Assembly (NCBI GenBank): GCA_001244265.2
Contig: CDLV01000011.1
Location: 1 to 64,000, forward strand
From: Microbotryum violaceum
Lineage: Eukaryota
Length of the DNA: 64,000 nt
Direction: 5' to 3'
The notes under the pieces were generated by a model, which was not told the DNA's origin, searched no databases, and saw only the letters and a list, made by a program, of their open reading frames with translations. The translations under genes were made by a program, and so were the position numbers. Positions 11,760 through 55,545 of the stretch are shown here, in pieces (position 1 is the stretch's first letter; each line of letters begins with the position of its first letter).

Positions 11760-13930
11760 AAGCGGCAGGAAGCAGCGCGAAGAGGCAGGAAGAGGCAATG
11801 AAAAGGCGCAGAGAGGCGCGCGAAGTAACTGCGAAGAGCGCGAAGTTCGTCCCAACACGGCGCCGAAGCGCACGCTCAGGCTCTTGCCCCCGCCTCGTCT
11901 ACAACCTCGTCGTCGTCCCCAGTCGCAACGAACTCGGTCAATATATCGAGCTAGAGCGCTTGTGTCTTGACGCAGCATCTACATCGACGCCCCCCAGCTG
12001 CCTTCGTACGACCAGGCTTGCGGCCGGGAGGGACGCGCTCTGAGCCACTCGACCCTGGTACGAGCGCCCGAGAGGCGGCCTCGGAGAGCGAGCATCAGCC
12101 AGAGCCGAGGGGATCTCCAAGGCGGTCCAGATGCAGCTCAACTTACAGTCCGGCCCTCAATACGTATTTCTTCAGCCCGCCGACCCCTGAGCAGCTTGCA
12201 ACAAGCTCGGGCCCAAGGGGCACAACATTGGCACCGAGAAAGCGCTGGACGAGGTCATAAAAGGTGTCAACATGGTGAGTCGACTGGGCTATTCGATCGC
12301 TTGGCAGCGTGAGCGTGTTAGTTTATTCCTTCGAGAGCTGAATCGCCTTTCAAAAGTCGTTTTTCACTGCTGGTATTCTCCTCGCGGTCAGTGGCGACGC
12401 TAATGTATTGGGGCGAGTTCTTGCCTGGCGGCCGGGGTGACTGACTGGTCGGTCGCCAGGCAAGAATTCGCCCCAATACATCAGCGTCGCCCCTGACCGC
12501 GAGGAGACGGCCGAGACGGCCGAGACGACGGCCGACGTCGTGCTCCTGACCCGCGCTGTGGTCGCGCACGACCCAACCCTCCGAATGTCTGGGCTTTTCC
12601 CAGTCACCCCGTTCCCCAAGCCGAGAAACCTGACGCCGATGCGGACCTCGACACCAACCTGAACTTCAACGCAAACGAAAACAGCAGTGGCCAGCATCAG
12701 AACGATGAGGCCGAGGCCGAGGACGCCGAGGACAACGGGTGCGACCAGTACGACGAGGACGTGGCCAAGGTGGACCTGCTATGGGCCAAACGCTACTTCA
12801 CGCACATGGTTCCCATGTGCGAGACCAAAGCGGAAAAGAGTTCAGGTCCATGGACGTGTAGTTTGGACGATTGTCCGGTGCCGGTCGTCGAGCGAGGTTG
12901 TGGTGGCAAGAACGCCGTTTAGCCGATCACTGTCTTTGACGAGACGGTAGAGAAGGTCGACAGCTCTCCATTCTCTTCGGTGACCGTTCTGGAGTTGGTG
13001 ACGAACACCCCGCAAGCAGCCATGACGTAGATTTTGAATCGGTCGCCACACAGGGTGAACCCGATCGCATGTTCTCGAATCGGCGTCGCAAGGGGTGCCG
13101 ATAATCGTCTGAACAAATGGCCCTCGGCCCTGGAGTTGCCCGCTTTGGTCTCGTCGACGGCGGCCACGTGCGTGAAGGAGCGCGAGCGCTTGGCCCGGTT
13201 CACTTCGCCTCGTCCTCCTCGTCGTACTTGTCGGGCCAGCCGGTTCTTCACGCACGTGGCTGCGGTGAGCGAGACCAAAACGGCGAAGAAGTCCAGGGCT
13301 AAGGACGTGTCTTTCGGACGGTTGTCGGCACTCCTCGCGACACCAATCCGAGAACATGCGATTGGGTTCACCCTGCAGTACAACCTTCTAAAAGTTTACG
13401 TCAGGCTGCTTGCGGGATGTCCTTTACCAACTCCAGAACGGTCACCAAAGAGAATGGAGAGCCGCCGACCTACTCTACCATCTCATCAAACACAGTGATC
13501 GGCTAAACGGCGTTCTTGCCACCACGACCTCGCTGGACGATCGCCACGGCCGGTTCACGCTCTGACCGGACTTCTTCCTGCCGGCGGACTCAGACTTCCG
13601 CTGGGGGGCAACGACGATATCCGACGTCGAGCTCGAGAAGTTTGTCTTTCGTCGACTCGGAGAGTGCGGTCGCGCGACGTTGATGTACGAAATCAGCGCT
13701 GGCGAGGGCACCAGCTGCAAGACCCGCGCAATGACGATCACGTGAGTCAAGGAGTCGCGCAACTCGGACTTGGCCGAGATCGTCAACTTCATCCAAGAAA
13801 AGAGATCTCGAAGGCTCGGTCCGCTCGTACTAGGCGTCTTCTGCACCGACTACAGGACTCTCCCGCGTTCCTGCCCAGTGATGAATCCTTTAAAGGTATC
13901 GTCCCGTGGGCCGAGGAGGTTGCCTTATGG
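11760..13930 (+). pseudogene. Second FunK1-type kinase pseudogene, internally rearranged; kinase C-lobe absent
   Basis: 12060-12280 is homologous to the reverse complement of 5100-5330. Also present: NSPQYISVAPDR..TADVVLLT and LLATPIREHAIGFTL..HSDRLNGVLATTTSLDDR, with an inverted extra copy of the latter at ~12870-13176. Start boundary is approximate. Confidence 0.8.
12377..12507. repeat. Fold-back inverted repeat, ~58-bp arms and 15-bp loop, made of FunK1 exon sequence
   Basis: tctcctcgcggtcagtggcgacgctaatgtattggggcgagttcttgcctggcggccg (12377-12434) matches the reverse complement of 12450-12507 with about 4 mismatches. Confidence 0.9.
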
Positions 13931-16764: not shown

Positions 16765-17087
16765 TGTTGAAGTAAATTACTCTTGCCTTAAATCCGCACT
16801 ACGCGCGTCTCCACTTTATATTAGTCGCGCGCGCGATTCGCGTCTTTGTCTCCTCTTCTTCACTTGATTACGAACTCATTGGCTCGTCCCTGCCGCCAAC
16901 TCGTTCAGGTCTGTGAAGAACTCCTTTATTGAAATCTTCACTTGATTACGAACTCATTGGCTCGTCCCTGCCGCCAACTCGTTCAGGTCTGTGAAGAACT
17001 CCTTTATTGAAATCTTCACTTGATTACGAACTCATTGGCTCGTCCCTGCCGCCAACTCGTTCAGCACATCGCTGTTCAGTTTCAATA
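16765..17087. mobile_element. LTR-like segment
   Basis: Starts tgttgaa and ends ttcaata (one transition from the inverted ttcaaca). Has an internal TATA-like tttatatta. No target-site duplication found. Confidence 0.4.
16857..17064. repeat. 78-bp tandem repeat, ~2.7 identical copies
   Basis: The unit tcttcacttgattacgaactcattggctcgtccctgccgccaactcgttcaggtctgtgaagaactcctttattgaaa starts at 16857, 16935 and 17013. Confidence 0.95.
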
Positions 17088-17558
17088 ACCCCACCTATGA
17101 TACGTATATACTGAGCGAGTCTTGATGACTCGCGGCACATATACCTTATTCGGGGGAGCAATCGTCCCTTTCATGTTGTTTTCAGAATCAGACATTGTTG
17201 TGCAATATTACTATGAGCGTGCGTTGAAGTTCTACCAGATTCAATCCCTGAGACGATGATCGGGCAAGTCGCTCATGACCATGCTTTGCGAAAATTCAGC
17301 CCTCTTCGAATCGCTCGGCTCTCGAACCTCATTTCTAGTCTCGAAAGAAAAGAAGTATCCGTTTGATTACTCTACACATTACCACCACCCTACGTACTCA
17401 AAAGAAGACGAGACGAAAAAACGAAATCCTACAAAAATTGTACCTAAACACTTCCATCCGACTCTTTACAATTACACCTGACCTCGTTACTCGGGACGGA
17501 TCGCGCCTTGCACGGGCCTGACCCAGAGACGAATGATCGCGTCCGCCGGGGTTGCTCT

Positions 17559-30324: not shown

Positions 30325-30748
30325 GAAGGAGGTAAACGGTGGGCAATGAGAATGGACAAGGAAGTTGAGGAAAGGTTTAGTATAATGCATGGGAATCCAA
30401 GGACGTTGTTCCTCATTTTGGTAAGGAGGTTCGGACGTTTCTCGTTATTTAGTTCCCTATTCTGCCACTCAACTTTTTGGAAATTCAGCTTGGAATGGCA
30501 GTGGAACTCGCGTTTTTGAAATCATCTTGATGTGATGACTCCAACAGCGGACGATGTTTGTATTTTTGGTCTCTAATTCGAGCTTGAAGCGACCAATCAG
30601 AACTTGGGGGTTAACGATCACCGTCATTACCGGGTTTCGCAGCCACGCCTGGAGTCGAGGTCGAGCAGCTCCACTTGCTTCCCGCTCTGGTTTCTGCCGC
30701 CTCATCTGCCCTATTTCAGCAAGCCTGAACATCGTTCGATCGTGCAAG

Positions 30749-32445
30749 ATGGCCAGCCTTCCGACCCGGATCCGGCAAGAGTCCCCACCGCTTCTCCTTC
30801 CGTCGAGCTCCGCGCCGTCCTCCTCACTCCGCCTCGTGGCCCAAGCACCCTTCTCCACCTCCGACCCCGCACCCTACGTCCTCCATGTCGTACCCCTCCC
30901 TACCTCATCAGGCGGAGGCTACCTCTTCGCCTCCTCTGACGACACGATCCAACACTTCTCCGCCGAGCTACAACCGCTAAGGGTGTTGAAATTGTCGCAA
31001 AAGGGGATCACGTCGATGAGCCGTGGAGCTGGGGAGGAGAGTACGGCCGTATTCATAACGGCGAGAGATGGGACTGTCACGGGGTGGGATACCAACGATT
31101 TATCCAAGGAGGTTTTTAAACTAAGAAGTGAGTTGATAGTAAACCACGGAAGGTTGCGAAGCGCGCAGAAGGAGGATCGTCGGCTGATAGGGGTTTCTTT
31201 GATGACGTGCAGGTAGTAGTGGAGCCGGACTCTTATGCGCGAGTCAAAGTAGTGATCTCTCTTGTCTTGCAGTAGGCGGTGAACTGCATCATTACGAAAC
31301 GACGATCGATCTGTGGTACGTTCTCCGAGACGCGGATGCGAAAAACCTTGACCTGTTCTTCAACCTCGACGCTTACCCTAATCGTGTCCCCTCAACTGCT
31401 ATCTCATCCAGGAACCTCACCACCTTAAAGCTACAACATACCTATACCGAAGCCCACTCGGATGACATCACTTCCCTCAAATTCCACCCCTCCCCCTCGC
31501 TCCCGCACATCCTCCTCTCCGCGTCCGTCGACGGCCTCCTCAACACCTACGATGTGCGGATACCAGACGAGGACGACTCGGTTCTCAGTACGAGTCAAGT
31601 CGGGACGTCTTTAATTGATGCGGGGTGGATGGCGAGGATCGGACATGCGGAGGAGGTCGCGTCGGGTGAATGGAAGGGGGTGTGGGCAACGACGACGATC
31701 GAGACGATGCAGTTGTGGGACATCGATGATGTGAGTCGTCCTCACTTGTCCGCGTGCGCTATTAATGTTCGAAGCTGACAACCGGGAATTTTTTATTTAT
31801 TTTTTGGTCTCTTTCAGCAATCCCTGATCAAGGATCTTGGAGACATTCGGGAGGTCGCGTTACAACCATGGAGATCGGACTACCTCATCTCGGCAACTTA
31901 TTCCCCCCACTTGGGCGGCGTCGCTATTTTCGTCGGCACGCAAAAGTGAGCAAAAAGCAGAGAATGCAAAAAAGCTAACTGAAAGTCGTCATCCCACTCA
32001 AAATTTCTTCGTTCGAACCCTTTTTTTTGCTTAGAGGTGACGCAGCTTTGTTGAATCTGTCGGACCCAAGGCGGTGGATCCTCGAGCAAATTTTGCCCGG
32101 CGTTGGTGGTCGAACACTTGGGGGCACGGGGCATGCCGACATTGTCCGATGCGCGACGATGAATACCCAGGTCAGTGTACATCTTCATTTTTAACTGCCC
32201 CACGAATCGCTATTTGGGAATGCCAAGCGACCGCCGACTCGATGGAGGAGCTCCCTCCGCCGAGCACAACACGAGCACGGCCGAAACAGCGCGCCGAGCC
32301 GAACCTCAGCTTGGCTAGTGCCCGCGCACCACGACCTCGGCGGCTGACCTTCCGTTCTTTTTGTGGACTTTTTCATGCTTCTGTACAGACGGGAACTGTT
32401 GCTACGGGTGGTGAAGACGGTAGGGCGTGTTTATGGTCGGTGTAA
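30749..32445 (+). CDS. WDR89: WD40-repeat protein, WDR89-like
   Basis: ARDGTVTGWD, YTEAHSDDITSLKFHP..LLSASVDGLLNTYD and a terminal VATGGEDGRACLW. Multiple GT-AG introns. Confidence 0.75.
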
Positions 32446-32708
32446 TGAATCCTCCTACCTTCTTCGCGAGCTACAACTGGGTGTTGTAGGGCGATGACGA
32501 AAGTCTCGTTTTTCTCCATTCACGCATACATTCGACCGACGCCCAAACGCTTCGCTAGCGGCTCGCCGAGCCCGGATGCCAAGAGCTTGCTTTCCGGCCG
32601 TGCCGCGCACACCTCACCCAAAGTCTGACGTCGTTTCCGAAACCTTGTCTCGTCGCAGAGAGACCCTCGATCAGGACTGGTTCGCACAATCAGCTCTTTC
32701 CAGATATT

Positions 32709-32717
32709 TTATCTGAT
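32709..32717 (-). promoter_or_regulatory. Candidate iron-responsive GATA repressor site (SreA/Urbs1/Fep1 type), ATCAGATAA
   Basis: ttatctgat on + is ATCAGATAA on -, an exact match to the ATCWGATAA consensus, ~225 bp upstream of a siderophore-transporter ATG. Confidence 0.6.
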
Positions 32718-32720
32718 CTC

Positions 32721-35435
32721 ACCACCTCGCAGCAGCTCCGGCCATCGTTGTCGCGCGCGCGAGGATAATCTGATCAAGATCTCATCTGAGCGCTCGTGCC
32801 GCATAATCACCGCACCCCACATGTGGCAGCCGAGAGCATGCCGTTTTTTTCCTCGCAAGCCGTCGGTTCAGGCCTTCTCTCCTTCTTTCCCCTCGAATCC
32901 CCACCTCAAAAGGAAAAACAACTTCTCTTTGTTGATCATCATGCCGAGTCCGACTTTGACGACGCTCCACGACTCGCGTTCCTCCGAGTCGTCGCACGAG
33001 GGCAAGCGCTCCAGCTCGGTCGCTCACGGCGTCGGACCCAGCGCCGGCGCGGGTGCCGACCTCGACACGAGTGCCGGCGTCGAAAACATGACCGTGATCG
33101 TCCCTTCCATCTCGCGAGGGGTGCGCAAGATGCAAGCTCTGCAACGTCGCTTGAACTTCAAGTATCTGTCATTGCTGTACGGTGGTTTCGCGTTGTTGGC
33201 TTTCGTCATGAGTTTGGGTGAGTGTCGAGCGAAGGAAGCTCTTTTACCGGAGGCCGTCAGGCCCTCGAGGGAACGAACGAGGAGGACTAACAAGTCCGAT
33301 CTTTCTCGTTCGATTTGCGCCATACGCTCGGTTATTTGATATTAATGTGACAGATCAATAGTGAGTCCATTGCATTTTTCTAGTCGTATGCTTAGAACGC
33401 GTTGTGTCTGATCTTTGCTCCTGTACTCCCCGTCAGCACCTCCGGAACCTACCTCACCACCGCGACGTCGGTCTCGTTCAAGGCCCACTCGACGCTCGCG
33501 ACGATCCGAACGCTCAAGTCCGTCTTCCAGGCCGTGTCGCAGCCGCCGATCGCTAAGATCTCCGATGTCGCCGGTCGTGTCGAAGCCTATGTGATGTGTG
33601 TTGTTCTTTACGCCGTTGGTCAGTCGGAGTATTTTGGTCGTTTCATTACCGTAATCGAGATCCTGAAGAATTTTCTCACTAACCTGGCAGGTTACGCCGT
33701 CGCTGCAAGTGCCAATAGCATCTACACGTACGCCGTCGGCAACTCCATCTACGTCCTCGGGATCACAGGTCTCTTCCTCCTTCAAAATATCATCATCTCA
33801 GAAATCTCGTCGACGCGAAACCGTCTGTTCTGGTCCATCTTCCCCTCAATTCCCGGAACGATCAACGTCTGGGTCTCTGGTAACATCACGGAGTCCGTGC
33901 TCGAGACGACGACCTGGCGATGGGGTCTCGGGATGTTTTGCATCATCGTACCAGCGATGGCGACGCCAATTATCCTTACGCTGACCTACGGTATGCGTCC
34001 TCATAAGAAGCATATCGATGGCACCCCAACCAAGTCCGAAAAGTCGCTCCAGGACGACGAGGAGGACGTCGCTTCAACGATCGTCAACGGCCCGACCATC
34101 TCGGACAACAAGACTTTGTGGACCAAGACGGTCGCCGTCTTCTGGTCGCTCGATCTCGTCGGTCTTCTCTTCCTCGTCGCCGGTGCGGGTATGGTGCTCG
34201 TCACCATCACGATTGCGAATGGCCGAGGCTCCAAGTGGTCGGACCCGCACTGCATCGCGCTTCTAACCGTTGGCGGTCTGTGCGTCATCGCCTTCGTTCT
34301 TTGGGAGGCTTACGGCGCTCGTCACCCTTTGATCCCCTTCTCGTTGATGAGGAACCGCACTGTCATCGTAGCTTTGATCATCGCCGTCGTCCATCCCACT
34401 GCAGGAGGTGCGATCGGTTCCTACTTTTTCACTTTCCTCCGCGTCGCCGCGAACCAGTCCAATACCTCGGCGACTCGTATCGTCAACCTCGCATCCTTCA
34501 CGGGCACGCTCACAGCCGCAGTGGCGGGTGTCGCAGCGCGTTACATCCGTTACCTAAAACCTATCATTCTCCTCGGCTTCGCGATCGAGGTTCTCTCCTT
34601 CGGCCTCATGATCCGTTACCGCCAATCGACGAACTCGCAGGCCGACCTCGCGATGGTTCAAATCGTTCGCGGTTTCGGTGTCGGATGCATTGGCTTCCCC
34701 GTTCAAGCTGCGATCCAAACCGTGTCAAAGCACGAACACATCGCTGCAATCACAGCTGGTTACCTGACCATTTACTACCTCTCGAGTGGTATCGGATCCG
34801 CAATCGGTGGTGGTAAGTTCCCCCCACTCCGCAGTCGAATAATTTTCCCGACGCGAAATAAAAACAGTACACTGAACCGTTCCTCCCACCTTCTATCTTC
34901 CCTTAAGGTATTTGGACGAACCTCGTCCCCGATAAGCTCGCGGAATACATGCCGGACCCAACCCTCGTCACCTCGGCATACCAGAACCCGATCGGTTTCA
35001 TCGCTCGTTTCCCACCCGGCACGCCCGAGCGTCTCGCCGTCGCCCGAGCGCACGATGAAACTCAACGTATCATCGTCATCGCCGGAACATGTATTGCCGC
35101 ACTGGGTTTGATCGCCGGCCTCTTCCTCGAGAACGTCAGATTGACCGACTCCACCTCGATTGAGAGGGACGAGAATGGGAACTACATCTCGGATCGCACG
35201 CCCGGCCACTTGAAGGCCGGAGCGCCAGGTGTAGTTGCGAGTGATGCGAAGGTCGTCAAGAATTGAAGTGACTAAAGAGGCTTGTTTTGGGGTAGGTTAA
35301 TCAAACGGTAGAAGTCGAAACTTTATAGATGTTGCAATGCTCTGTCCATCAATTCCCGTGTGAGCTACTCGGCTGCCCCTTCAGAATGGTAAACACGTCA
35401 GAGTTTTCTAGAGTGCGACTCCTCGTGCGACCCCC
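32721..35435. repeat. Left arm of a ~2.7-kb inverted duplication (partner 38720-41428)
   Basis: Homology starts at accacctcgcagcagc (32721) versus gctgctgcgaggtggt (ends 41428) and fades in the 3' flank near 35435/38720. Confidence 0.95.
32941..35266 (+). CDS. Siderophore-iron MFS transporter (ARN/SIT1/MirB family), copy 1
   Basis: GVRKMQAL, SLDQYTSGTY (via a 7-nt microexon), HSTLATI..AVSQPPIAKISDVAGRVEAY, WRWGLGMFCII, LDLVG, IGSAIGG and ERLAVARAHDETQR. Many hydrophobic helices. Confidence 0.9.
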
Positions 35436-35569
35436 CCTTTGTACATTAAATCCTACGCAAACTTCTCAATTGTTCCTCACCATGTCTAAATTCGACAAAA
35501 AGCGTGCTCGGGCTGTAGCTCGACTTTTATGGTGCAGAAAAGGCGGAAAGGGTCGTACATGACTTCTGG

Positions 35570-35879
35570 GCTCCGCCGACGGGATCACGTGCGAGTGGGG
35601 GTGCATCTCTACGAGTTGCGATTCATAGCCCTGCGAGGCAAAGCGGCTCGACCAGTCTGCGAATTTTCTTTGCAATACGCGGTGACGATGTAGGTCAGAA
35701 ACTAGGCGCGCGTTAACGATGCTGCTACAATGTACGTACGCTCTGCCGATCGGATCGTGGTTGAAGGTGAGGAACGTCAATGGCTGAGCTAGGATCCTCG
35801 CTCCGGCCGGGGGTCTGATCGTCTTTACGATAGCCCGGGACTGTTTTGCGCTAGAAAAGCATCGTCCAAGTAAGGGCAT
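35570..35879 (-). pseudogene. 5' half of a split gene (alpha/beta-hydrolase-like hypothetical protein)
   Basis: ATG at 35879 and a 72-nt GT-AG intron give MPLLGRCFSSAK..QPLTFLTFNHDPIGRAKFADWSSRFASQGYESQLVEMHPHSHVIPSAE. It ends in the 14-mer shared with 41474-41487. Confidence 0.7.
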
Positions 35880-36226
35880 GTGAGGGGACGGGGGCCGAGC
35901 GAAAACTCGGTGAGCTGGATGAGCGGGAGCGGGAAAAGGGGCTATCGCTGACCATTGCTATTACCCATCACGGGTGGTCTGATCTGATCCATTCTAATGG
36001 TCACTTGCTTGCCTGCCCCTGCCTTGGCGCGGACGTTGGCCATCGCAGCCGGCGCGCTTCGAGCTTCGAGTAGCTTCCAGTTTTTGACCTCGCCCACTCG
36101 CACGCGATTCGTCATCGGCCAACCAAGCCGACCGGCCGCACCCCGAGGCACAGCGCACCGCAGTAGCAGCCACAGTTAGCACACCCTTGTCGCTTGGACC
36201 ATCAGAAGCTCACTCCTCGATCGACC

Positions 36227-38560
36227 ATGCCCAACGCCAAGAGGAGTGGTGCGGCTCAACGGACCAAGAAAGCGTCAGTGTGGCTCCCGTCTTTCACGCG
36301 CCAAACGAGCGAGCACCCCAGCTCAACTGTAGCCTCGTACGAGATCACAGTCGAGGCACACACCGTGTAGTGCGAACGATTCCGCTCCAACGGTGCCGAG
36401 ACTGAACCTGCTCTGCGCCGGTACTCCGCGGCATGTCGCCTGATCGAGTCATCCCGTTTGACTCTCGGCCGGCCCTCCCACCACCATCAGCTCAGCAGCA
36501 TCTACTTGATTTGAAGTACTTTCGGAACTGACTTTATTCACCCTTGCTCCCCACAGCGCGAATGCCAAAGCCGCCGCCGCAGGCACCTCGACCTCTTCCT
36601 CGACCACGAACGGGGCTTCGGCCTCGTCCTCCTCTTCACGTTTCGGTCATTCGGGCGAGTTTACCTTCTCCTCCCCTCCCCCACGCACCTCCAGGAAAAC
36701 TACCACCAGCGGCAAGAGCAGTCCTTCGGCGCAGAAGAGAGGACATCTGTCCCCCATCGTGCTCTCGTCCGATAGCGACGACAGCGACGACGACGACAGC
36801 AGCAGCGAGGAAGAGGACGACAGCGACGATGCCAAGGAGGCCGATAGCGATGTCGATATGGGCGAGAGGGAAAAGCCTGATCACGAGTTGACCGCCGAGG
36901 AGAAGCTCGTCAGGGCCGCGGAGAGGAAGGAGACTGGTAATGAATATTGTACGTCGAACGCAGTCAGAATAGGCTTCCACTTTACTGACGTCTGTCTGGG
37001 GTTCCTCGAGGCGTACAGACAAGAAGAAGGACTACCCAACTGCGACGCGATACTATTCTCAAGCCATCTCGCTAGACCCGACGAACCCGACCTACCTCAA
37101 CAACCGAGCCGCATCGCGTATGGAATCGCGCGTCTACTCTTCAGCGTTCGAGGACCTCCTCGCTGCAGCAGCTTTGCAAGCCAAGGAGCCGCAGGTCAAG
37201 ACCTTGTTGCGATTGGGCAAGTGTCAGACCGCTTTGGGGCTCGTCAATCAGGCGCAGCAGACCTTGGACCAGGCGTTCAAGATGGACTCGACGAACGTTG
37301 GCGTGCAGAACGAGCGCAAGAAGGTCGCGAGGATCCAGAACGCCTTGGCCAACGTCAAGCGCGATCTGGAGAAGAAGGATTGGTCCATGGTCCTCCTGGG
37401 TATTGATGCTGCCGCGAGGGAGGTCGAGGAGACGCCGAGAGAGTGGAGGACGTGGAAGGTCCAGGCATTGGTGGGGAAAAAGCAGTACGACCAAGCTGCT
37501 GGGATGGCTGCGTAAGTTCTGATCTATACCAGGTTGCTGGTTGGTCAAGCGCTGATGGTTTCGATCGACTACCTCGCAGTGATTTATTGCGAGCAAACCA
37601 GAACCAGCCCGAGGCGCTGTACTACCGAGGCCTTTGCCTCTACTACGCCGGCAACCACCCCCAGGCGATTGCTCATTGCCAGCAAGCTTTGCGTAATGAT
37701 CCAGATTACGTTCTTGCTCGGTGGGTTGCTTCGCCTCTTTCACGCGTCAGGAACGCCCCCCCCCCCACTGATGTGAACCAAGAGCATCGCACAGAACACT
37801 ACTGCGCCAAGTCAAACTTGTGGATTCGCTCAAGGATGCGGGCAACGAAGCGTTCAAAATGAACCGGCTCGACAGGGCCATCGCCAAGTACAGCGAGGCG
37901 CTCGCCGTCGATCCGGAGAACGACGTTCTACGCGCGACGCTGTTGTCGAACCGCGCGACGGCGCAGCTCAAGCTCAAGAAGTACGACGAGGCGTTGAGCG
38001 ATTGTGAGGCGTGTTTGGCGCTGCAACCGCAGTACTGGAAGGCGATGAGGACCAAGGCCCGGGTTGGTCTTGCGCAAGAGGAATGGGAAGGCGCAGTGCA
38101 CGCTTTCAAGCAGGCCTACGAGATCGCTCCCGCGGGATCGAACGACGAGGCCGCGTTGAAGAGGGAAATCGCTGATGCCGAGGCCAAGTTGAAGAGGAGC
38201 AAGATGAAGGACCATTATAAAACTTTGGGGATCAGCTCGACCGCGTCCGAGGACGAGATCAAGAAGGCGTACAGGAAACAGTCGCTCATTCATCACCCCG
38301 ACAAGGGAGGGTCCGACGCGAGCTTCAAGGAAGTTGGCGAGGCGTACGCCATCCTTAGTGATCCGCAAAGGAGGAGGAAATTCGACATGGGCATCGACGA
38401 GAATGACCCTCATGCTGGTCATGGCGGCGGGGATGACTTTGGGTTCGGCGGCGGCGTAGATCTTTCGGATCTATTCGGTGCTGCGGGTGGCTTTGGTGGA
38501 GGTGGCTTTGGTGGGGGTGGACGGCGACAGTACCATTCTCATCAGCAGTACGGGTTCTAG
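36227..38560 (+). CDS. DNAJC7: TPR + J-domain co-chaperone (DNAJC7/Tpr2-like)
   Basis: TPR repeats (KETGNE, YLNNRAA, KDAGNEAFK, LLSNRATA) and a C-terminal J domain KDHYKTLG..IKKAYRKQSLIHHPDKGG..FKEVGEAYAILSDP with a G/F-rich tail. Confidence 0.88.
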
Positions 38561-38719
38561 GCAAGCGTGTACGAACGATAGAAGCCGACAGTCTAGTCAC
38601 AGGTCGTGCAATGCATTTCTTCCTTTGGACACAGCCTACCGCCAGTCTCTTTGTTACCATGAATGATACGCTGCTTCTCAGTGATCCCAAAAAAGTGCTG
38701 AGAAGTCCGGGAAAAAACA

Positions 38720-41428
38720 GGGGGTCGCACGAAAAGTCGCACTCTAGAAAACTCTGATGTGTTCACCATTCTGAACGGAGTGGCTCACACGGGAAGTGGT
38801 CGACACAGCATTGCAACATCTATAAAGTTTCGACTTCTACCATTTGATTAACCTACCCCAAAAGAAGCCTTTTTAGTCACTTCAATTCTTGACGACCTTC
38901 GCATCACTCGCAACTACACCTGGCGCTCCGGCCTTCAAGTGGCCGGGCGTGCGATCCGAGATGTAGTTCCCATTCTCGTCCCTCTCAATCGAGGTGGAGT
39001 CGGTCAATCTAACGTTCTCGAGGAAGAAGGCGGCGATCAAACCCAGTGCGGCGATACATGTTCCGACGATGACGATGATACGTTGAGTTTCATCGTGCGC
39101 TCGGGCGACGGCGAGACGCTCGGGCGTGCCGGGTGGGAAACGAGCGATGAAACCGATCGGGTTCTGGTATGCCGAGGTGACGAGGCTTTGGTCCGGCATG
39201 TATTCCGCGAGCTTTTCGGGGACGAGGTTCGTCCAAATAACTTAAGGGAAGATAGAAGGTGGAAGGAACGGTTCAGTGTACTGTTTTTATTTCGCGTCGG
39301 GAAAATTATTCGACTGCGGAGTGGGGGGAACTTACCACCACCGATTGCGGATCCGATACCACTCGAGAAGTAGTAAATGGTCAGGTAACCAGCTGTGATT
39401 GCAGCGATGTGTTCGTGCTTTGACACGGTTTGGATCGCAGCTTGAACGGGGAAGCCAATGCATCCGACACCGAAACCGCGAACGATTTGAACCATCGCGA
39501 GGTCGGCCTGCGAGTTCGTCGATTGGCGGTAACGGATCATGAGGCCCAAGGATAGAACCTCGAGTACGAAGCCTAGGAGGATGATAGGCTTGAGGTAACG
39601 AAGGTAACGCGCTGCGACACCCGCCACTGCGGCTGTGAGCGTGCCCGTGAAGGATACGAGGTTGACGATACGAGTCGCCGAGGTATTGGACTGGTTCGCG
39701 GCGACGCGGAGGAAAGTGAAAAAGTAGGAACCGATCGCACCTCCTGCAACGTGACGGACGACGGTGGTGATCAAACCGACGATGACAGTGCGGTTCCTCA
39801 TCAACGAGAAGGGGATCAAAGGGTGACGAGCGCCGTAAGCCTCCCAAAGAACGAAGGCGATGACGCACAGACCGCCAACGGTTAGAAGCGCGATGCAGTG
39901 CGGGTCCGACCACTTGGAGCCTCGGCCATTCGCAATCGTGATGGTGACGAGCACCATACCCGCACCGGCGACGAGGAAGAGAAGACCGACGAGATCGAGC
40001 GACCAGAAGACGGCGACCGTCTTGGTCCACAAAGTCTTGTTGTCCGAGATGGTCGGGCCGTTGACGATCGTTGAAGCGACGTCCTCCTCGTCGTCCTGGA
40101 GCGACTTTTCGGACTTGGTTGGGGTGCCATCGATATGCTTCTTATGAGGACGCATACCGTAGGTCAGCGTAAGGATAATTGGCGTCGCCATCGCTGGTAC
40201 GATGATGCAAAACATCCCGAGACCCCATCGCCAGGTCGTCGTCTCGAGCACGGACTCCGTGATGTTACCAGAGACCCAGACGTTGATCGTTCCGGGAATT
40301 GAGGGGAAGATGGACCAGAACAGACGGTTTCGCGTCGACGAGATTTCTGAGATGATGATATTTTGAAGGAGGAAGAGACCTGTGATCCCGAGGACGTAGA
40401 TGGAGTTGCCGACGGCGTACGTGTAGATGCTATTGGCACTTGCAGCGACGGCGTAACCTGCCCAGGTTAGTGAGAAAATTCTTCAGGATCTCGATTACGG
40501 TAATGAAACGACCAAAATACTCCGACTGACCAACGGCGTAAAGAACAACACACATCACATAGGCTTCGACACGACCGGCGACATCGGAGATCTTAGCGAT
40601 CGGCGGCTGCGACACGGCCTGGAAGACGGACTTGAGCGTTCGGAGCGTCGCGAGCGTCGAGTGGGCCTTGAACGACACCGATGTCGCTGTGGTGAGGTAG
40701 GTTCCGGAGGTGCTGACGGGGAGTACAGGAGCAAAGATCAGACACAACGCGTTCTAAGCATACGACTAGAATAATGCAATGGACTCACTATTGATCTGTC
40801 ACATTAATATCAAATAACCGAGCGTATGGCGCAAATCGAACGAGAAAGATCGGACTTGTTAGTCCTCCTCGTTCGTTCCCTCGAGGGCCTGACGGCCTCC
40901 GGTAAAAGAGCTTCCTTCGCTCGACACTCACCCAAACTCATGACGAAAGCCAACAACGCGAAACCACCGTACAGCAATGACAGATACTTGAAGTTCAAGC
41001 GACGTTGCAGAGCTTGCATCTTGCGCACCCCTCGCGAGATGGAAGGGACGATCACGGTCATGTTTTCGACGCCGGCACTCGTGTCGAGGTCGGCACCCGC
41101 GCCGGCGCTGGGTCCGACGCCGTGAGCGACCGAGCTGGAGCGCTTGCCCTCGTGCGACGACTCGGAGGAACGCGAGTCGTGGAGCGTCGTCAAAGTCGGA
41201 CTCGGCATGATGATCAACAAGGAGAAGTTGTTTTTCCTTTTGAGGTGGGGATTCGAGGAGAAAGAAGGAGAGAAGGCCTGAACCGACGGCTTGCGAGGAA
41301 AAAAACGGCATGCTCTCGGCTGCCACATGTGGGGTGCGGTGATTATGCGGCACGAGCGCTCAGATGAGATCTTGATCAGATTATCCTCGCGCGCGCGACA
41401 ACGATGGCCGGAGCTGCTGCGAGGTGGT
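38720..41428. repeat. Right arm of the ~2.7-kb inverted duplication
   Basis: Reverse complement of 32721-35435. Alternative-frame ORFs are identical between arms, e.g. 33709-33984 and 40164-40439. Confidence 0.95.
38882..41208 (-). CDS. Siderophore-iron MFS transporter, copy 2
   Basis: Same exon structure as copy 1 with splice sites and frame intact. Amino-acid differences cluster in the C-terminal half. Confidence 0.9.
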
Positions 41429-41473
41429 TACTACCTCTATATATATAAAAAGGCCTCTATCTATATATAAAAA

Positions 41474-42184
41474 CCCGTCGGCGGAGCAGGCGTGGTTCGA
41501 GGAAATGGGTAGACTTGGTATCGAGACGATTGGAAAGCATTTGGAAAAGCTGGCAGAAGGTACAGTGCACAGAAGACTGAGGTTCGCATTTCGTTGGCGG
41601 ACGGAAGCTTCTCAGACCATAAACTCCTTTTCCCCCCTTTCCTCACTCCAGCCTTCATGTCCCTTCTGAACCCTCACTTGCAAGTCTTACAGAAGCACCC
41701 AAGCTGACATTCCCTCTTTCTTTGAACAGACTACATCGCCCATCTACGCGCTTCCAAAGCGTCCCCCTTCCCATCCCTCCTTTTCTCACATTCGACGTCG
41801 ACTCTTCTCGCCGAGACGTACGTCTCCTCCCATTCCCTGTCGGGTATGGTCCTTTTCTCCCCACCCTCGCTCTCCGACTTTGGTCCACTCGGTCCCTTCC
41901 ACCCCTCTCGGAAGCAGAGAAAGGATTTCGAAGCAGCCGCTACTTCGGCATCAAGTACCCCCTTCGGGCCGACCCAAGACCTGTTCAACTACGAACCCGG
42001 ATTCCCCATCGCGATCACCCTACCCCACTTGACTGCACCGTCATCCCCTCTTCCCGAGCACCATCGCCTCTTTCGAGATTTTGGCGACGATGGAGAAGAG
42101 AACGTCGAGGCGTGGATCGAAGGACCGAGCGAGGAGCAGAATTGGCAGAGGGTGATGGATTGGATGGATGTAAACAGGTTCTAA
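41474..42184 (+). pseudogene. 3' half of the split alpha/beta-hydrolase-like gene
   Basis: PSAEQAWFEEMGRLGIETIGKHLEKLAE, intron 41560-41729, then DYIAHLRASKASPFPSLLFSHSTSTLLAETYVSSHSLSGMVLFSPP..FNYEPGFPIAI..WMDVNRF*. No stops; native start missing. Confidence 0.72.
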
Positions 42185-42458
42185 GAACGAAATTGGGGGT
42201 GCTGCTTTTTCGAAAAATCTCGATTCGCGTTGTTGTAAATTCATGCAGTTCATCCCACTCGGTCGTTCCGTTCCGTAGTAAGGGATAAGTGCAAGCCAAG
42301 GCGCTATCGCCCGAAGGAGCGTCGGACTCCGAACGCACGATGACGTAAATGGCTCCGCCTCGCGCATCTCGAAAGCGGTCCATTCCTCGTCTTCCTTCTC
42401 TCCTCTTCTTTCCGTACCATCACTATCTAACTCTGCCATCTATCATCAGCCGTCAATC

Positions 42459-43206
42459 ATGGTAAATCGACAACCTCTGAACCGTATTGGAAACCACTCT
42501 TGATTCGAGTTGTGTCATAACTGACGATCGACCTGTGACACACTACAGTCCGCACCCGCCCAGGAACCCGGCCACTTCAAGTGATTGCAAATCGACCTCC
42601 TCAGCTCCATCTTACCTAATTCGATCTAACTCTTCCTTTTCGTTATGTACAGCCCCATCACGCAGCGCTTCGAAGCGGACTCGGCGCATGTCGTCTCGTC
42701 CGAGCAGAATGGCTCAACCTTCCCCGGCGACGACCACCCCTCCTCTGCAGCAGGTGTCAGGACCATTCCTGCGCCTTGTAAGCTTCGGCGCTGTCAATAA
42801 TTCGGCTTGAAAAGTTCGCTGATCAAACTCTCGGCGCTCTGGACGATGGTCTCGAACCGAACGTCTTACTTGCCTTTATCAAAAACTCAGCCACGCAGCC
42901 GAGTTTCAAGGATCAAGTCATTGGGAATGCCAAGAAGGTAAGCGAAGATGTACAACCTGCCACGAAATCTCCCATTGACTCGGTATTTAATCTCACCAGT
43001 TTGCTGGCCAAGCTTTCGGACGAGTAAGCAGAAACCGAAACCGCGCCGTCACATAATTTAGCCCATCGCTCAACCTCGACTCTCTTCTCTAGGAACACGA
43101 AAAGATTACAGGAGAGGCCTTAATTGCAGGTCATGGAAAAGATAAAGCTGAGCAGATCGGTCAAGAAGTCAAGGCTGCGACGGAGCAACAAGCTGCCAAG
43201 AAGTAA
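42459..43206 (+). CDS. Small (~114 aa) hydrophilic protein, six exons, CsbD/LEA-like character
   Basis: Exons 42459-42461, 42549-42580, 42653-42777, 42891-42937, 43000-43023 and 43093-43206. Five GT-AG introns join them in one open frame ending TAA. Confidence 0.8.
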
Positions 43207-45640
43207 GCGATTCGACTGGTTTCCGATTCGGGCCCCCTTTTCAGGGTTTGACAAGGAGCGCGGCGCTTATATTTACGCGGAGCCAGAGGAAGATGTAATG
43301 CAATGTTTTCTTCAATATCGACTAATTTTTAGTCCCCTCGGAAAGCTTGCATGTGTTTTCGAGTTACATCTCGGGCCTCTCGACGACTGATAGCACGCGC
43401 CGCGCTGCTTGACAGCGTCAACCGAATCCCGCATCATGCCCACCACCGAGGACTCCCTATCATCTTCAGATTGCACGTTCCAAAACACCGACGATTTCCT
43501 CAGCAGAGAAAGCCGCTCTCTTTCTCAAGATTCTGCAATAGCCACGCAGCGACTGCTGCCGGTATGTAAAGGAATCAAAGTATGCGTCTCTGGTGTGCAT
43601 GATTACAAATCTGTCATTCTTGACGGTTCTAGTAGCTACTCAGAAGCCACTTATATGGCTGAAAGGCATTCCCTTATACAGACAGCCGGTGAGGGCCGGG
43701 GAGGATCCCCGATTAGACGCGTGGTCCACAAAAAGCGGTGCTGCCTACGTTATATTTTTGGGGCGTTTGTGCCTCGAGATGCGCGATGCGCGGGACTTGG
43801 ACCCGCCGCCCCCGCGTTGACTAAGACTACATCCGCGGACGATTAGGCTGCCTTCGTGAGCAAACGTGCAAACACCAGCGCTTGTCGATTCGTCAATAAT
43901 CACCGCAATCGCTTCCGCCCTTTTTCATCATCAGCATCTGCATCATCTGAAAACCATGCCTCCGTGTGTGAGCTAAGCAAAAAAAAAAAACCCACATCCT
44001 TGACTCTCAAGACGCCAAAATTTAAGAGCGGAAGGTTGACGAATGACGATGAAACTTGACGAAGGCACAAAACTAGGGGGGCGCTCCCAGTCCTCGGCGC
44101 GATCCGGGCCCGTCGGTCTGCTTACCCAAAGCTGGCATTGGTTGTCGACTTCTGGTTGGTCGCGGGCGGTGAAAATTGAATCTGACCAGAGAAGGTCCCC
44201 TTTGGCTCGAGAGGAGGCCGATGAATCGAGCGCTTCCGATTTTTTCGCGGTCAGCATCACCTACAGTATAAAGTCTTCTGCAGAAGCTGTGGCTCTGGAG
44301 AAGGGAGCGAACTGGGTCTGGAAGGAATCAGATCAGCTTGTGGGATCGCCCGTTGCTAGATGCCGCCAGTTTTGGTGGCAGCTCTTCATTGTCAAAGGTT
44401 GAGCCTGCTGCTGGCCCTAATATGGGCGTTGCCGTTTATTCATAGCGCTTCCTCGAGCTGTCGAGCCGGGGTTTCCGATTATAACCCACGTCCGTTCGCT
44501 TCCCAGCTGCTGCCCCCCTCCCCCTCGCACCTCATCTTGACCGCCTCGGACGTGCTCATCGCTACCGTCGTCGGTCTGCAGTTTTCGAGCCCGTAAACTC
44601 TGCTGTTATCGTGCATCATCTTGGTCAGCCCCCGCCATCGCCAGCCTAACCCGGGTTGCCCTCTTCAAAACGCACTAGTACAAGCGCTGGCAACTCGCAC
44701 GCACCTCGACGGAGCTCCCACACATCCCTTAAAGCTCGTATATCTTTGCACAACCCGTTGCGTTTGGAACCTTGTTCATCGAGTCTCGCCATCGTCAACG
44801 TTGATACCCCTCTGAGGAGGTCTACAAGGCTGCATCTGGCCTCGACTTGAATTCGACTCTTGCGCCGTCTCCGCCGGCAAGCCACAGGCGGCGCGCGACT
44901 CGATCTCGCTCAGCTCCGATCCCACTACGGCGTGATCCCCGATCAGCCTCGCCTCGGATTTTTGCTCCGTACTTTCGATCAGGTCAGTTCTCTCTCCTCC
45001 TGTTGTTCTATCATTTCCATCCATCAGCGTCGATGCTCGCTCGCTTCGCATTCGTCCCCGGGACTCTCTCTCGTCCGGGGTCGGGGTCGAGGGGTTCACG
45101 GTCGAGAGGGTCACGGGGGTCCTTGGTGTCACCTCCGTGATACCGAGCCGCGGTACCACCTCCGACAAGATCACTTTTCTCCGCTACTGGAACCCAGGGG
45201 AAGGGTGCATTCACTCCTGGTAGATCATCGGGACATCGACTGCATCTCCGCCTCGTCGACGCGAGGCACGATCCGCCCAGAGTGGTGTCGTGGGTGTATG
45301 CGCAGGAAAGGAGGCGATTTAGCGCCATCGAGGGACTCGGCGCAGGTGCTTCACCATTTCCGGGGCGGTATTGGCTGCCCCCTAGATGAAAGAGATGCAA
45401 GAGAAGGGATGAGTCGACTATCGTTCTCCTCTCTCATCGTGCGGCGAACACTCGAGTGGTTTTGGGTGCTTTTCGACCGCGGAGGCACATCGTTTTCATC
45501 TCAACGGAGATCACGCGTCTAATTCAGGAGTAATCGACGGCTGCTGAGATTGAACTCACCCTCGCTTCCGCCCCCGTGCTCTTCAACCCTATTCCACCCA
45601 TCTACAGATCTCGCTCTTCTCACTGCGCACTCGTGAAATC

Positions 45641-54266: not shown

Positions 54267-55545
54267 TCATCGTTGTGCGCAGCCCTTCAACAGCCTGTGA
54301 TACCGGGTGTTTAGGCGAAGCATCTCTTTGAGGTCATAGACTAGGTCCGCTTCTTGCCGATTCCAGTAGCCCCAGAAAGTCTCACCATCTGGTGTCATCA
54401 CGAGCACTTGATAGTCGCCCATGTACGGCTCGCGGAACGAGATTTCCATCACGAGGTAGAAAAGCGACTCAATATCGTGCCATCGTTCGTGGTCGACACG
54501 GAGCGGCTGTTGCGGCTCGGCGAGGATCGAGCAGGGGAGGTAGGGCCAGGCGCCCTATAACACGTCGTATAGTCCAAATGGCTAGCGCTGATCAGAAATA
54601 TCATTCGGAGAAACATACACAGGGGAGGACGCACGGACCGTATTCTGCGGTACAGCTCGGTGCAAGGCCGATCATGTGGGACGGCGAGATGATAGTCGAG
54701 GAGAGCGCCGACGCCGTCACGGTCGATGACAACGCTATCGTACGAGATATCACCGTGGATATACCCCAGCTTGTAGAGGTTTCGGAGTCCTGTAGTGTCA
54801 TGGGGATGGGCGTGTCCCTCAGGGAGCGCAAACGCAAGGCCGCCCAGTCAATCCCTGTGCTCACCTTTGACGACTCCAAGTACGGCCTGGGCGAGTTTCT
54901 TGGTCGTCCTTGTCGTGCTGAGGGGCCAATAAGACTGTCGAATGAAGACCACCTCGAGTGCCCGGGGTTCGATGCCGTCAAAGTTTTCATCGACGCCGAG
55001 GAAGGTCGGAAGCGTGCGCAAGTCGCCCCGGTAGATGCCGGCGCTAAGGCTTAGTCCCTCGGTGTCGGCACGCGACGCGGCGTGCATCTTGCGATGTAGT
55101 GCGATGCCATCGTCAAGGAGAGAGTGCTCCGCCCATGCGAACGTTATAGCGTACTCGACGGCAGGGGTAGGCGAGGTCGACGTGATCGGAGTGATTGCCG
55201 TGGGGTCGACTGGCGCGTGTCGTGCAATGGCATAACACGCGGAGGTGGTGAGACGACGGCAGATTCGGCGTCGGGTGAGGAACTCCTGGATCTCGAGATC
55301 TCGAAGGTCGCCGAGCTCGGACTCGAAGTCGTGGGCACGGGGTGGGAGAAGCTTGTCCGAGACGACAAAAGTTCCGAGAACATCGTCGACCTCGTTCAGC
55401 GAGGCCAGCATCCCGAGCTCGTCGTCGTCGTCGTCTCGTCGTCGAGTTCGATGAGGCGCGACAGCACGCGCCGGAGCAGCACGGCTTCCTCACCGCACTT
55501 GCGCGCGTTCGTCGTGAACACCCCACTCGCGTTGACGAGGTAGTG
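54267..55545 (-). pseudogene. Third FunK1-type kinase pseudogene, 5' part replaced by Copia sequence
   Basis: YLVNASGVFTT..LSRLIELDD..GMLAS, SYWPLSTTRTTKKLAQAVLGVVKG, LYKLGYIHGDIS..ALLDYHLA and HERWHDIESLFYL. Frameshifting (acg)n expansion near 55430. Confidence 0.8.

What the first reader, a model, noticed from the sequence alone, without database searches (positions are those of the whole stretch)
32721..42184. Reconstructable inversion that duplicated a siderophore transporter and cut a gene in two
Seen order: WDR89> SIT-1> <X(5') DNAJC7> <SIT-2 X(3')>. The X halves share the 14-mer CCCGTCGGCGGAGC (35570-35583 on -, 41474-41487 on +). Merging them there gives one frame, ..MHPHSHVIPSAEQAWFEEMG.., from ATG 35879 to stop 42184 (~255 aa). 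Inferred ancestor: WDR89> SIT> <DNAJC7 X>. Inverted duplications at both breakpoints (2.7 kb and 14 bp) are the established signature of staggered-break inversions. The lineage apparently traded gene X for a second iron transporter.
Basis: partly seen in the sequence, partly recalled or inferred. Interest (0 to 1): 0.85.

Follow-up and report, generated by a model that had tools for sequence, protein, structure and literature searches.

The report
Inverted transporter duplication splits a gene

Summary
Two 2.7-kb arms (32721-35440 and 38715-41428, about 98% identical, inverted) each carry an intact siderophore-transporter (SIT) gene. An exact 14-mer lies inverted at 35570-35583 and 41474-41487.

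The window is Microbotryum lychnidis-dioicae (names). The two "X" pieces are halves of one conserved gene. Read together inside a script they give an open 278-codon frame. Whole orthologues align to it in single colinear matches that cross the join.

M. saponariae and M. intermedium have one SIT, and their consecutive locus tags give the order SIT-DnaJ-X.

- Both new junctions carry filler. One is 129 nt and includes a fragment of a dispersed repeat that ends exactly at the 14-mer. The other is 45 AT-rich nt.
- The arms show gene conversion.
- SIT-2 has 15 derived residue changes against 2 in SIT-1.
- SIT-2 lacks the perfect ATCWGATAA iron-repressor motif, which lies 4 nt outside the duplicated block.

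A single staggered-break inversion is my best reading (0.55). An inverted insertion into X followed by a recombinational flip gives the same sequence (0.33). Short-read contigs cannot confirm the orientation of the middle segment.

This is a new member of a known kind, of moderate interest.

The parts
30539..32445 (+). It is the unchanged left flank.
   Evidence: Open frames. Only a weak WD40 match: 23.6 bits, under the cut-off of 27. WDR89 identity not tested.
32709..32717 (-). Perfect ATCWGATAA motif (binding-site type of GATA iron repressors). It lies 224 nt upstream of the SIT-1 ATG and 4 nt outside the duplicated block.
   Evidence: It is the only match in the window; 0.47 expected by chance. 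Motif definition from passages of PMC2610380. Function here is inferred.
32721..35440 (+). Left arm of the inverted duplication (2720 nt).
   Evidence: Contigs break 30 nt inside it, at 32750.
32941..35266 (+). SIT-1 (MVLG_02615): siderophore-iron transporter of the MFS type, four exons, intact.
35441..35569 (.). Filler at junction 1. Positions 35472-35569 are an internal fragment of a dispersed repeat, and the fragment ends exactly at the 14-mer.
   Evidence: Depth at 35502 is 12 to 18 times that of the flanks in three runs. Loose ends at 35472, 35488, 35507 and 35568/35569 in four runs. No other copy in the window.
35570..35583 (-). Copy 1 of the 14-bp duplication of X coding sequence.
35570..35879 (-). 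5' half of gene X: 103 codons from the ATG at 35879, open, not annotated.
   Evidence: Aligns to residues 42-62 of P0002, 1-35 of P0003 and 20-76 of P0004.
36227..38560 (+). DnaJ/TPR co-chaperone gene (MVLG_02616, DNAJC7-like), inside the segment between the arms.
38715..41428 (-). Right arm of the inverted duplication.
   Evidence: Contigs break 30 nt inside it, at 41399.
38882..41208 (-). SIT-2 (MVLG_02617; the annotation starts at 41328). Intact frame, with 15 derived residue changes.
41429..41473 (.). Filler at junction 2: 45 AT-rich nt containing a 17-nt tandem duplication.
   Evidence: (D3). Bridged by contigs 41399-44000 in X1 and X12.
41474..41487 (+). Copy 2 of the 14-bp duplication.
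41474..42184 (+). 3' half of gene X: exons to 41559 and 41730-42184. It is annotated as MVLG_02618 from an internal ATG at 41505.

Best explanation
After M. lychnidis-dioicae diverged from M. saponariae and M. intermedium, one break-and-repair event hit the ancestral row SIT> <DnaJ X>.

The inferred steps are:
1. One breakpoint was staggered by 2720 bp, covering the whole SIT gene with 220 bp of upstream and 174 bp of downstream DNA.
2. The other breakpoint was staggered by 14 bp, inside the coding sequence of X.
3. The segment between them was rejoined in reverse. Each staggered stretch therefore stayed at its old place and was also copied, inverted, to the other end.
4. End-joining added filler at both new junctions: 129 nt, including a captured piece of a dispersed repeat, and 45 AT-rich nt.

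What is shown:
- the two arms;
- the 14-bp duplication;
- the two halves of X;
- one close SIT orthologue listed and a whole X in each of the two outgroup species, with tags in the order SIT-DnaJ-X;
- the fillers.

What is inferred: that it was a single event, the staggered breaks themselves, and the orientation of the outgroup genes.

Later events: the arms exchanged sequence by gene conversion. X, an alpha/beta-hydrolase-fold protein of unknown function, was left as two open fragments. SIT-2 kept an intact frame but changed faster than SIT-1, and it lacks the perfect GATA-repressor motif that lies just outside the copied block.
For: Structure:
- Arms and 14-mer.
- The layout is A-B-D'-C'-B'-D-E, as in the model of Ranz et al. 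2007. I read passages of PMC1885836: 17 of 29 Drosophila inversions carry such inverted duplications of non-repetitive sequence.

X is one gene:
- The 5' half aligns to the N-terminal parts of whole orthologues, and the first 3' exon aligns to the next part. They overlap by the three residues that the 14-mer encodes.
- The joined frame has 278 codons and no stop. Each of the 5 orthologues compared gave one colinear match, and all 5 matches cross the join.

Outgroup order:
- M. saponariae tags g08997 (X), g08998 (DnaJ), g08999 (SIT).
- M. intermedium tags 5007 (SIT), 5008 (DnaJ), 5009 (X).
- Each species has only one orthologue at 86-90% identity; its next SIT hit is at 59-63%.
- In the window the 5' half of X lies between SIT-1 and DnaJ. 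Compared with this order, that is a reversal.

Read data:
- Arm contigs lie at twice the flank depth in 3 runs under 3 organism labels.
- Contigs bridge junction 35440|35441 (X1), 35569|35570 (X12) and 41473|41474 (X1, X12).
- Contigs run from the 5' half of X through DnaJ into the diverged inner end of the right arm (X1 35566-38836; X12 35512-39010).

Proximity: the source and the target lie 3.3 kb apart, which a local DNA break mechanism explains without further assumptions.
Against: - No outgroup DNA could be fetched. Order comes from locus-tag numbers and proteins only, and orientation in the outgroups was not seen.
- The junctions hold 129 nt and 45 nt of filler, which the plain fill-in model does not predict.
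- A 2.7-kb stagger exceeds the longest duplication reported for D. yakuba (about 1.9 kb aligned). It needs long unwinding or the sister-chromatid version of the model.
- The arms hold a 685-nt identical run (1 of 20000 random placements reach it), so they recombine. A flip between them keeps every junction sequence, so the contigs cannot tell the assembled orientation from the flipped one.
- Two residues of the annotated MVLG_02617 carry the other arm's allele compared with the window. Phasing within the arms therefore differs between data sets.
Confidence: 0.55

Rival explanations
1. Two steps, both DNA-based.
1. A break in X with 14-nt staggered ends was repaired by inserting an inverted copy of the nearby SIT segment together with the two fillers. 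This gives SIT> <DnaJ X5'> [filler, <SIT-2, filler] X3'>, with a 14-bp target duplication.
2. Homologous recombination between the inverted arms later flipped the DnaJ + X5' segment. The segment may still flip back and forth.
For: - Flipping 35441-38714 on paper restores the outgroup order, with one 2.9-kb insertion flanked by the direct 14-bp duplication and both fillers on the inserted block (coordinates).
- The arms show gene conversion: a 685-nt identical run, and differences clustered 8 in 30 nt and 11 in 57 nt. Crossovers between them are therefore plausible.
- The path needs three breaks rather than four.
- The contigs fit both orientations.
Against: - It needs one more event than the single-step model to reach the assembled order.
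- No contig or assembly seen here shows the unflipped form. The annotated gene order SIT, DnaJ, SIT, X3' is the same in both forms, so it does not help.
Confidence: 0.33
2. Retroelement-mediated insertion followed by a flip. An unspliced antisense transcript across SIT was reverse-transcribed at a nick in X by a LINE-type enzyme, which switched template to a repeat-element RNA at the end.
For: - A 14-bp target duplication lies within the range I recall for target-primed insertions.
- The 45-nt filler ends in AAAAA directly next to the 3' copy of the 14-mer.
- The other end carries a fragment of a dispersed repeat.
- An antisense template would keep the SIT introns, and they are kept.
Against: - A retrocopy landing 3.3 kb from its source in a genome of tens of megabases would be a coincidence of roughly 1 in several thousand (my estimate).
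- Five A's are not a tail.
- The 45-nt filler showed no excess depth and no loose ends in the runs laid, so nothing marks it as part of a repeated element.
- No reverse-transcriptase gene is adjacent; the nearest lies at 7230-7781.
Confidence: 0.05
3. Assembly artefact or chance: the second SIT copy or the split of X is not real, or the 14-mer is a coincidence.
For: - The window's assembly method is unknown.
- Repeat arms are hard to phase.
- Other exact 14-nt repeats occur in the 15-kb region by chance (D6, D7, I6).
Against: - The arms lie at twice the flank depth in three runs, and junction-bridging contigs exist.
- The arms differ by 53 substitutions, with separate annotated genes MVLG_02615 and MVLG_02617.
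- The 14-mer is the only such pair in the window (0.08 expected). It lies at the exact end of each half of X, and it encodes the residues shared by both halves' alignments.
Confidence: 0.03

Closest known systems
Drosophila inversions with inverted duplications at both breakpoints (staggered-break model; Ranz et al. 2007, PMC1885836, passages read)
   Same: - Non-repetitive, ancestrally single-copy sequence, here a whole gene, is present once at each end of the reversed segment in inverted orientation.
- Both breakpoints are duplicated.
- No pair of transposable elements lies at the two ends.
- A gene is disrupted at one breakpoint.
   Different: - The organism is a basidiomycete fungus.
- The inversion is tiny: 3.3 kb between the arms, about 8.8 kb in all.
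- One duplication (2.7 kb) is longer than the 46 bp to about 1.9 kb reported for D. yakuba.
- Both junctions carry filler.
- The copies are still about 98% alike, against about 88% in flies, and show gene conversion.
Segments between long inverted repeats that flip by homologous recombination (recalled from general knowledge; no paper read here)
   Same: Two arms of 2.7 kb, about 98% identical and 3.3 kb apart, with conversion tracts. A flip keeps all junction sequences.
   Different: No flip polymorphism was seen here. The data could not have shown one.
Filler or captured DNA at end-joined double-strand breaks, including pieces of mobile elements (recalled; no paper read here)
   Same: A fragment of at most 98 nt from a dispersed repeat, cut off exactly at the junction with X, and a 45-nt AT-rich filler with an internal tandem duplication.
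   Different: The origin of the first 31 nt of filler 1 and of all of filler 2 is unknown.
Fungal SIT-family siderophore transporters under GATA-repressor control (SreA/Urbs1 type; PMC2610380, passages read)
   Same: SIT-1 has the extended motif ATCWGATAA upstream, as do the in vivo binding sites cited there for U. maydis sid1 and S. pombe str1.
   Different: Binding and iron regulation in Microbotryum were not tested. SIT-2 keeps only two overlapping one-mismatch versions of the motif.

Membership tests
Inversion with inverted breakpoint duplications (staggered-break type) | A segment is reversed compared with the ancestral gene order. | tested here: met
   Outgroup locus tags give SIT-DnaJ-X. 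In the window the 5' half of X lies between SIT-1 and DnaJ. This holds for the window as assembled. Outgroup orientation was not seen.
Inversion with inverted breakpoint duplications (staggered-break type) | Orientation of the middle segment is confirmed by molecules that span a whole arm. | not testable with these tools
   All runs laid were short-read contigs that break at the arms.
Inversion with inverted breakpoint duplications (staggered-break type) | Ancestrally single-copy, non-repetitive sequence is duplicated in inverted orientation at the two ends. | tested here: met
   The SIT block is 2720 nt, and one close orthologue is listed in each of two outgroup species. The 14 bp of X coding sequence occur once per orthologue at protein level.
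Inversion with inverted breakpoint duplications (staggered-break type) | No pre-existing pair of inverted repeats or mobile elements lies at the two breakpoints. | tested here: met
   A repeat fragment lies at junction 1 only. Junction 2 filler is unrelated to it.
SIT subfamily of major-facilitator transporters | Major-facilitator domain, with named siderophore transporters as closest characterised relatives. | tested here: met
   MFS_1 scores 34.8 bits (cut-off 33.4) on the SIT-1 frame. The partial SIT-2 frame scores 22.7 bits. PF07690 is precomputed on both annotated proteins. Hits named Sit1, ferrioxamine B transporter and SIT-family symporter lie at 34-38% identity, E 1e-64 to 1e-73. These names are annotations, not tests.
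SIT subfamily of major-facilitator transporters | Transports ferri-siderophores. | not testable with these tools
   Needs uptake assays.
DNAJC7-like co-chaperone | TPR repeats followed by a J domain. | tested here: met
   DnaJ 77.3 bits plus several TPR families. Relatives are named DnaJ subfamily C member 7.
Alpha/beta-hydrolase fold (gene X) | Alpha/beta-hydrolase fold. | tested here: met
   The Atlas model of orthologue P0004 matches alpha/beta hydrolases at TM 0.67-0.73 by query. My own model is weak (pLDDT 56.3), but nearly all of its listed PDB matches are alpha/beta-fold hydrolases (lipases, esterases, thioesterases, serine peptidases), at TM 0.41-0.56 by query. No Pfam family and no PDB sequence match under E 0.39.
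Alpha/beta-hydrolase fold (gene X) | Conserved nucleophile in a small-x-Ser-x-small elbow. | tested here: inconclusive
   The expected column is not among the invariant columns of the 6-sequence alignment, and M. intermedium has Leu there. Placement of the elbow is by eye.
LINE-type target-primed insertion | Target duplication, A-rich tail at the 3' end, processed (intron-less) copy. | tested here: not met
   The duplication is present (14 bp). The 'tail' is only five A's. All three introns are kept. The source lies 3.3 kb away.

The most novel reading that the evidence does not exclude
The rearrangement was adaptive rather than merely tolerated. The left break fell 4 nt inside the only perfect iron-repressor motif of the SIT promoter, so the new copy escaped iron repression. 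SIT-2 then diverged under selection in two membrane segments (15 derived residue changes against 2), giving the parasite a differently regulated or re-specified siderophore importer for life inside its host. The price was a dispensable hydrolase-like gene.
Probability: 0.12. Interest if true: 0.65.

Novelty: new member of a known kind. Interest (0 to 1): 0.42.

Why it matters
Every element of this rearrangement can be read at base level: both duplications, both fillers, the broken gene and the outgroup order. That makes it a useful worked example, in a fungus, of how one small break-repair event can create a gene duplicate, destroy a neighbouring gene and build a recombining inverted repeat. 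My searches for staggered-break inversions together with fungal terms or Microbotryum listed three Drosophila or other fly papers and one Microbotryum paper. In the Microbotryum paper the word 'staggered' only describes a figure. The locus also gives a young transporter pair with unequal evolution and unequal promoter content. That pair can be tested for iron regulation and substrate range in a plant parasite. It does not change how such rearrangements are thought to arise.

Tried and rejected
- **Whole genome:** none is held for this window, so copy counts and the source of the fillers could not be searched.
- **Cluster members:** I could not see whether the second members of the X3' and DnaJ clusters come from a sister species. 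It therefore stays open whether M. silenes-dioicae shares the split. Its only listed SIT hit is a 63% paralogue.
- **Exhaustive search with the 5' half of X:** it gave 1 hit, E 6e-06, on query residues 16-42, which lie largely upstream of the X start codon. This is uninformative. Pairwise comparisons were used instead.
- **Expression:** no RNA holder was listed. Run X19, guessed to be RNA, gave contigs that run through SIT introns without gaps (38981-39546, 40350-40647), so it behaves as DNA. Nothing can be said about expression.
- **Undisrupted X in reads:** no contig joined across the break (joints table empty). All four runs laid are at least 99% like the window for most pieces, so no true outgroup was among them.
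- **Ectopic conversion from the second SIT paralogue:** this does not explain the SIT-2 clusters. The paralogues P0012 and P0022 do not carry the SIT-2 residues.
- **Micro-inversion in the clusters:** rejected by direct view.
- **Frameshift in SIT-2:** the 1-nt indel that splits the long open frame of SIT-2 lies in intron 2, so SIT-2 is not frameshifted.
- **Filler 1 as an RNA gene:** there is no tRNA and no Rfam match near the gathering score.
- **Earlier notes of this scan:** none for this genome.
- **Papers:** nothing on these genes (MVLG ids) and nothing on Microbotryum siderophore transporters at this locus (listing only).
Full report
**What is in the sequence**

The window holds two inverted arms, 32721-35440 and 38715-41428. 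The repeat finder reports three colinear pieces at 99%, 98% and 89%. A global alignment gives 53 substitutions, a 1-nt indel and a 7-nt indel.

Chance expects 0.08 matches, and 0 of 100 shuffles reached two. The duplication is exactly 14 nt long, because the neighbouring bases differ between the copies.

**Organism and genes**

Protein searches name the source as Microbotryum lychnidis-dioicae p1A1 Lamole. The annotated genes are:

| Gene | Identity | Position |
|---|---|---|
| MVLG_02615 | SIT-1 | left arm |
| MVLG_02616 | DnaJ/TPR protein | between the arms |
| MVLG_02617 | SIT-2 | right arm |
| MVLG_02618 | 169-residue protein starting at an internal ATG in the 3' piece of X | right of the arms |

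- Pfam finds MFS_1 on both SIT frames and DnaJ plus TPR on the middle gene. It finds nothing on X.
- The gene on the left gave only a sub-threshold WD40 match. I did not test the name WDR89.

**X is one gene cut in two**

Whole orthologues of X exist in six species. They are M. saponariae (237 aa), M. intermedium (211 aa) and, at 224-228 aa, Rhodotorula dairenensis, Rhodotorula pacifica and Sporobolomyces blumeae. Rhodotorula sphaerocarpa has a shorter annotated form of 135 aa.

- The minus-strand frame 35466-35957 aligns to the N-terminal parts of these proteins: residues 42-62 of M. saponariae, 1-35 of M. intermedium and 20-76 of Rhodotorula dairenensis.
- The first exon of the 3' piece aligns from residue 60 of the M. 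saponariae protein.
- The two alignments overlap by the three residues that the 14-mer encodes.
- Joined by coordinates inside a script, with the sequence not printed, the halves give 278 codons with no stop and the join after codon 103.
- Each of the five orthologues compared gives one colinear match, and all five cross the join. An example is joined residues 69-278 against 1-211 of the 211-residue M. intermedium protein.

**What X is**

X has no Pfam family and no PDB sequence match under E 0.39.

- The Atlas model of the Rhodotorula orthologue matches alpha/beta hydrolases at TM 0.67-0.73.
- My own model is weak (pLDDT 56.3), but nearly all of its listed PDB matches are alpha/beta-fold hydrolases.
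- The expected nucleophile column is not invariant.

X is therefore an alpha/beta-hydrolase-fold protein of unknown, possibly non-catalytic, function.

**Ancestral order**

| Species | X | DnaJ | SIT |
|---|---|---|---|
| M. saponariae | Chr6-3g08997 | g08998 | g08999 |
| M. intermedium | BQ2448_5009 | 5008 | 5007 |

- Each species has one SIT at 86-90% identity to the query. The next SIT hit of a Microbotryum species lies at 59-63%.
- In the window the 5' half of X lies between SIT-1 and DnaJ. Compared with the outgroup order, the block DnaJ + X5' is therefore reversed and SIT is doubled.
- This rests on tag numbering and proteins. I could not fetch outgroup DNA, so their gene orientations were not seen.

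**Read data**

I laid contigs of four runs, under four organism labels and from four studies, on 31000-44000.

- In three runs the arm contigs have about twice the depth of the flanks (X1 425 v 225; X12 55.7 v 26-28; X9 10.5 v 5-6).
- Contigs end 30 nt inside the arms, at 32750 and 41399. That is expected where a k-mer graph branches at a repeat border.
- Contigs bridge 35440|35441 (X1, 35312-35532), 35569|35570 (X12, 35512-39010) and 41473|41474 (X1 and X12, 41399-44000).
- X1 also has a contig 35566-38836 with no difference from the window.
- No joint was reported, so no run shows an unbroken X.
- X12 and X19 share a set of variants about 0.3% from the window, and X12 still carries the rearranged junctions.
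- The fourth run (X19) has low depth, and none of its listed pieces bridges a junction.

Between the left arm and the 14-mer lie 129 nt (35441-35569).

- At 35502 the summed depth is 3985 v 225 (X1), 345 v 28 (X12) and 55.5 v 4.6 (X9).
- Loose ends lie at 35472, 35488 and 35507 on one side and at 35568/35569 on the other, in all four runs.
- So 35472-35569 is an internal fragment of a dispersed repeat with roughly 12-18 copies, cut off exactly where X begins.
- The fragment has no other copy in the window. It is not a tRNA or a known RNA family.

Between the right arm and the other 14-mer lie 45 AT-rich nt containing a 17-nt tandem duplication.

Both new junctions were therefore made by an untidy end-joining repair.

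The differences between the arms are strongly clustered:

| Stretch | Differences |
|---|---|
| 34370-34399 | 8 in 30 nt |
| 34545-34601 | 11 in 57 nt |
| last 170 nt of the arm | 15 substitutions plus a 7-nt indel |
| one internal run | 685 nt identical |

Only 1 of 20000 random placements of the 55 differences gives an identical run that long.

- The arms therefore exchange sequence, and their mean identity understates their age.
- Two residues of the annotated MVLG_02617 carry the left-arm allele where the window's right arm differs. Phasing inside the arms is thus not stable between data sets.

**State of the two transporters**

- The 1-nt indel that breaks the long open frame of SIT-2 lies in intron 2, so both coding sequences are intact.
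- Over 646 codons there are 13 synonymous and 21 non-synonymous differences, giving dN/dS of 0.55.
- I polarised the 20 differing residues with the two outgroup proteins. Fifteen are derived in SIT-2, 2 in SIT-1 and 3 are ambiguous (binomial p = 0.002).
- Five of the SIT-2 changes hit residues that are invariant in six other homologues.
- This fits either relaxed constraint or a shift of function. I cannot tell which.

Upstream, the only match in the window to ATCWGATAA lies at 32709-32717, 4 nt outside the copied block.

- ATCWGATAA is the extended GATA motif over-represented in SreA-regulated promoters. The in vivo sites of U. maydis sid1 and S. pombe str1 comply with it (PMC2610380, passages).
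- SIT-2 keeps only two overlapping one-mismatch versions.
- That this changes regulation is an inference.

**Mechanism**

The layout A-B-D'-C'-B'-D-E is the one that Ranz et al. explain by paired staggered breaks. In that model the overhangs are filled in and the ends joined without homology, or sister chromatids are cut at different places. They found it in 17 of 29 fly inversions (PMC1885836, passages). This single-event reading needs no extra step to reach the assembled order, and it explains why the source and the target are neighbours. I give it 0.55.

The same sequence results from a two-step path. First, an inverted SIT copy with its fillers is inserted into a 14-nt staggered break in X. 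Later the arms recombine and flip the middle segment.

- Flipping 35441-38714 on paper gives the outgroup order with one insertion flanked by a direct 14-bp duplication.
- A flip inside the identical parts of the arms keeps every junction, so the contigs cannot distinguish the two orientations.
- The annotated gene order cannot distinguish them either.
- I give the DNA-based two-step path 0.33.

The remaining readings rank lower:
- A retroelement-mediated variant gets 0.05. The introns are kept, the 'tail' is five A's, and the source lies 3.3 kb away.
- An artefact or chance reading gets 0.03.

**Known or new**

- Searches for the four gene ids found no paper.
- The listing for Microbotryum with siderophore showed nothing on this locus (listing only).
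- Microbotryum with 'staggered' and 'inversion' gave one paper, in which 'staggered' describes a figure.
- 'Staggered breaks' with 'fungal' and 'inverted duplication' gave three Drosophila or other fly papers.

The kind of event is well known. This is a new and unusually legible member in a fungus, with a young transporter pair as a by-product.

**Verdict**

The gene-level reconstruction holds. The single-step mechanism and the idea of a 'trade' are not shown.
- Interest 0.42.

Noticed in passing
window 4085-5515 and 11855-13828: A second, older set of inverted repeats (pieces of 45-353 nt at 78-93%) lies about 20 kb upstream. One arm holds a frame with a Pkinase_fungal match (3874-4947, 29.5 bits). 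Between the arms lies a reverse-transcriptase frame (7230-7781, RVT_1). There is also a local palindrome at 12878-13547.
   Followed up: partly
window 35472-35569: A fragment of a dispersed repeat with about 12-18 copies by summed contig depth in three runs. Other copies run on at both ends. The family is not identified.
   Followed up: partly
window 41259 and 40645 (SIT-2 residues 24 and 158 of the annotated protein): The annotated MVLG_02617 protein carries the left-arm allele at two places where the window's right arm differs. The window and the annotated assembly therefore phase the arms differently, or one of them is converted or collapsed there.
   Followed up: partly
window 32709-32717: The only perfect ATCWGATAA motif (GATA iron-repressor type) in the window lies 224 nt upstream of SIT-1, just outside the duplicated block.
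   Followed up: partly
window 16857-17090: A 78-nt unit repeated in tandem three times. The first two copies are identical and the third is 78% alike.
   Followed up: no
window 55047-55225 and 63821-63999: A direct repeat of 179 nt at 84%, the second copy touching the end of the window. Small palindromic repeats lie at 63143-63473.
   Followed up: no
window 31901-31935: In runs X1 and X12, contigs from elsewhere match only this 35-nt stretch of the upstream gene and run on unlike it at both sides. It is a short sequence shared with another locus.
   Followed up: no
proteins P0002 and P0003 (orthologues of X): The annotated N-termini of X differ among Microbotryum species. M. intermedium starts at the equivalent of joined residue 69. 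The first 41 residues of the M. saponariae protein do not align to the window's 5' half. The gene models, or the genes themselves, vary there.
   Followed up: no
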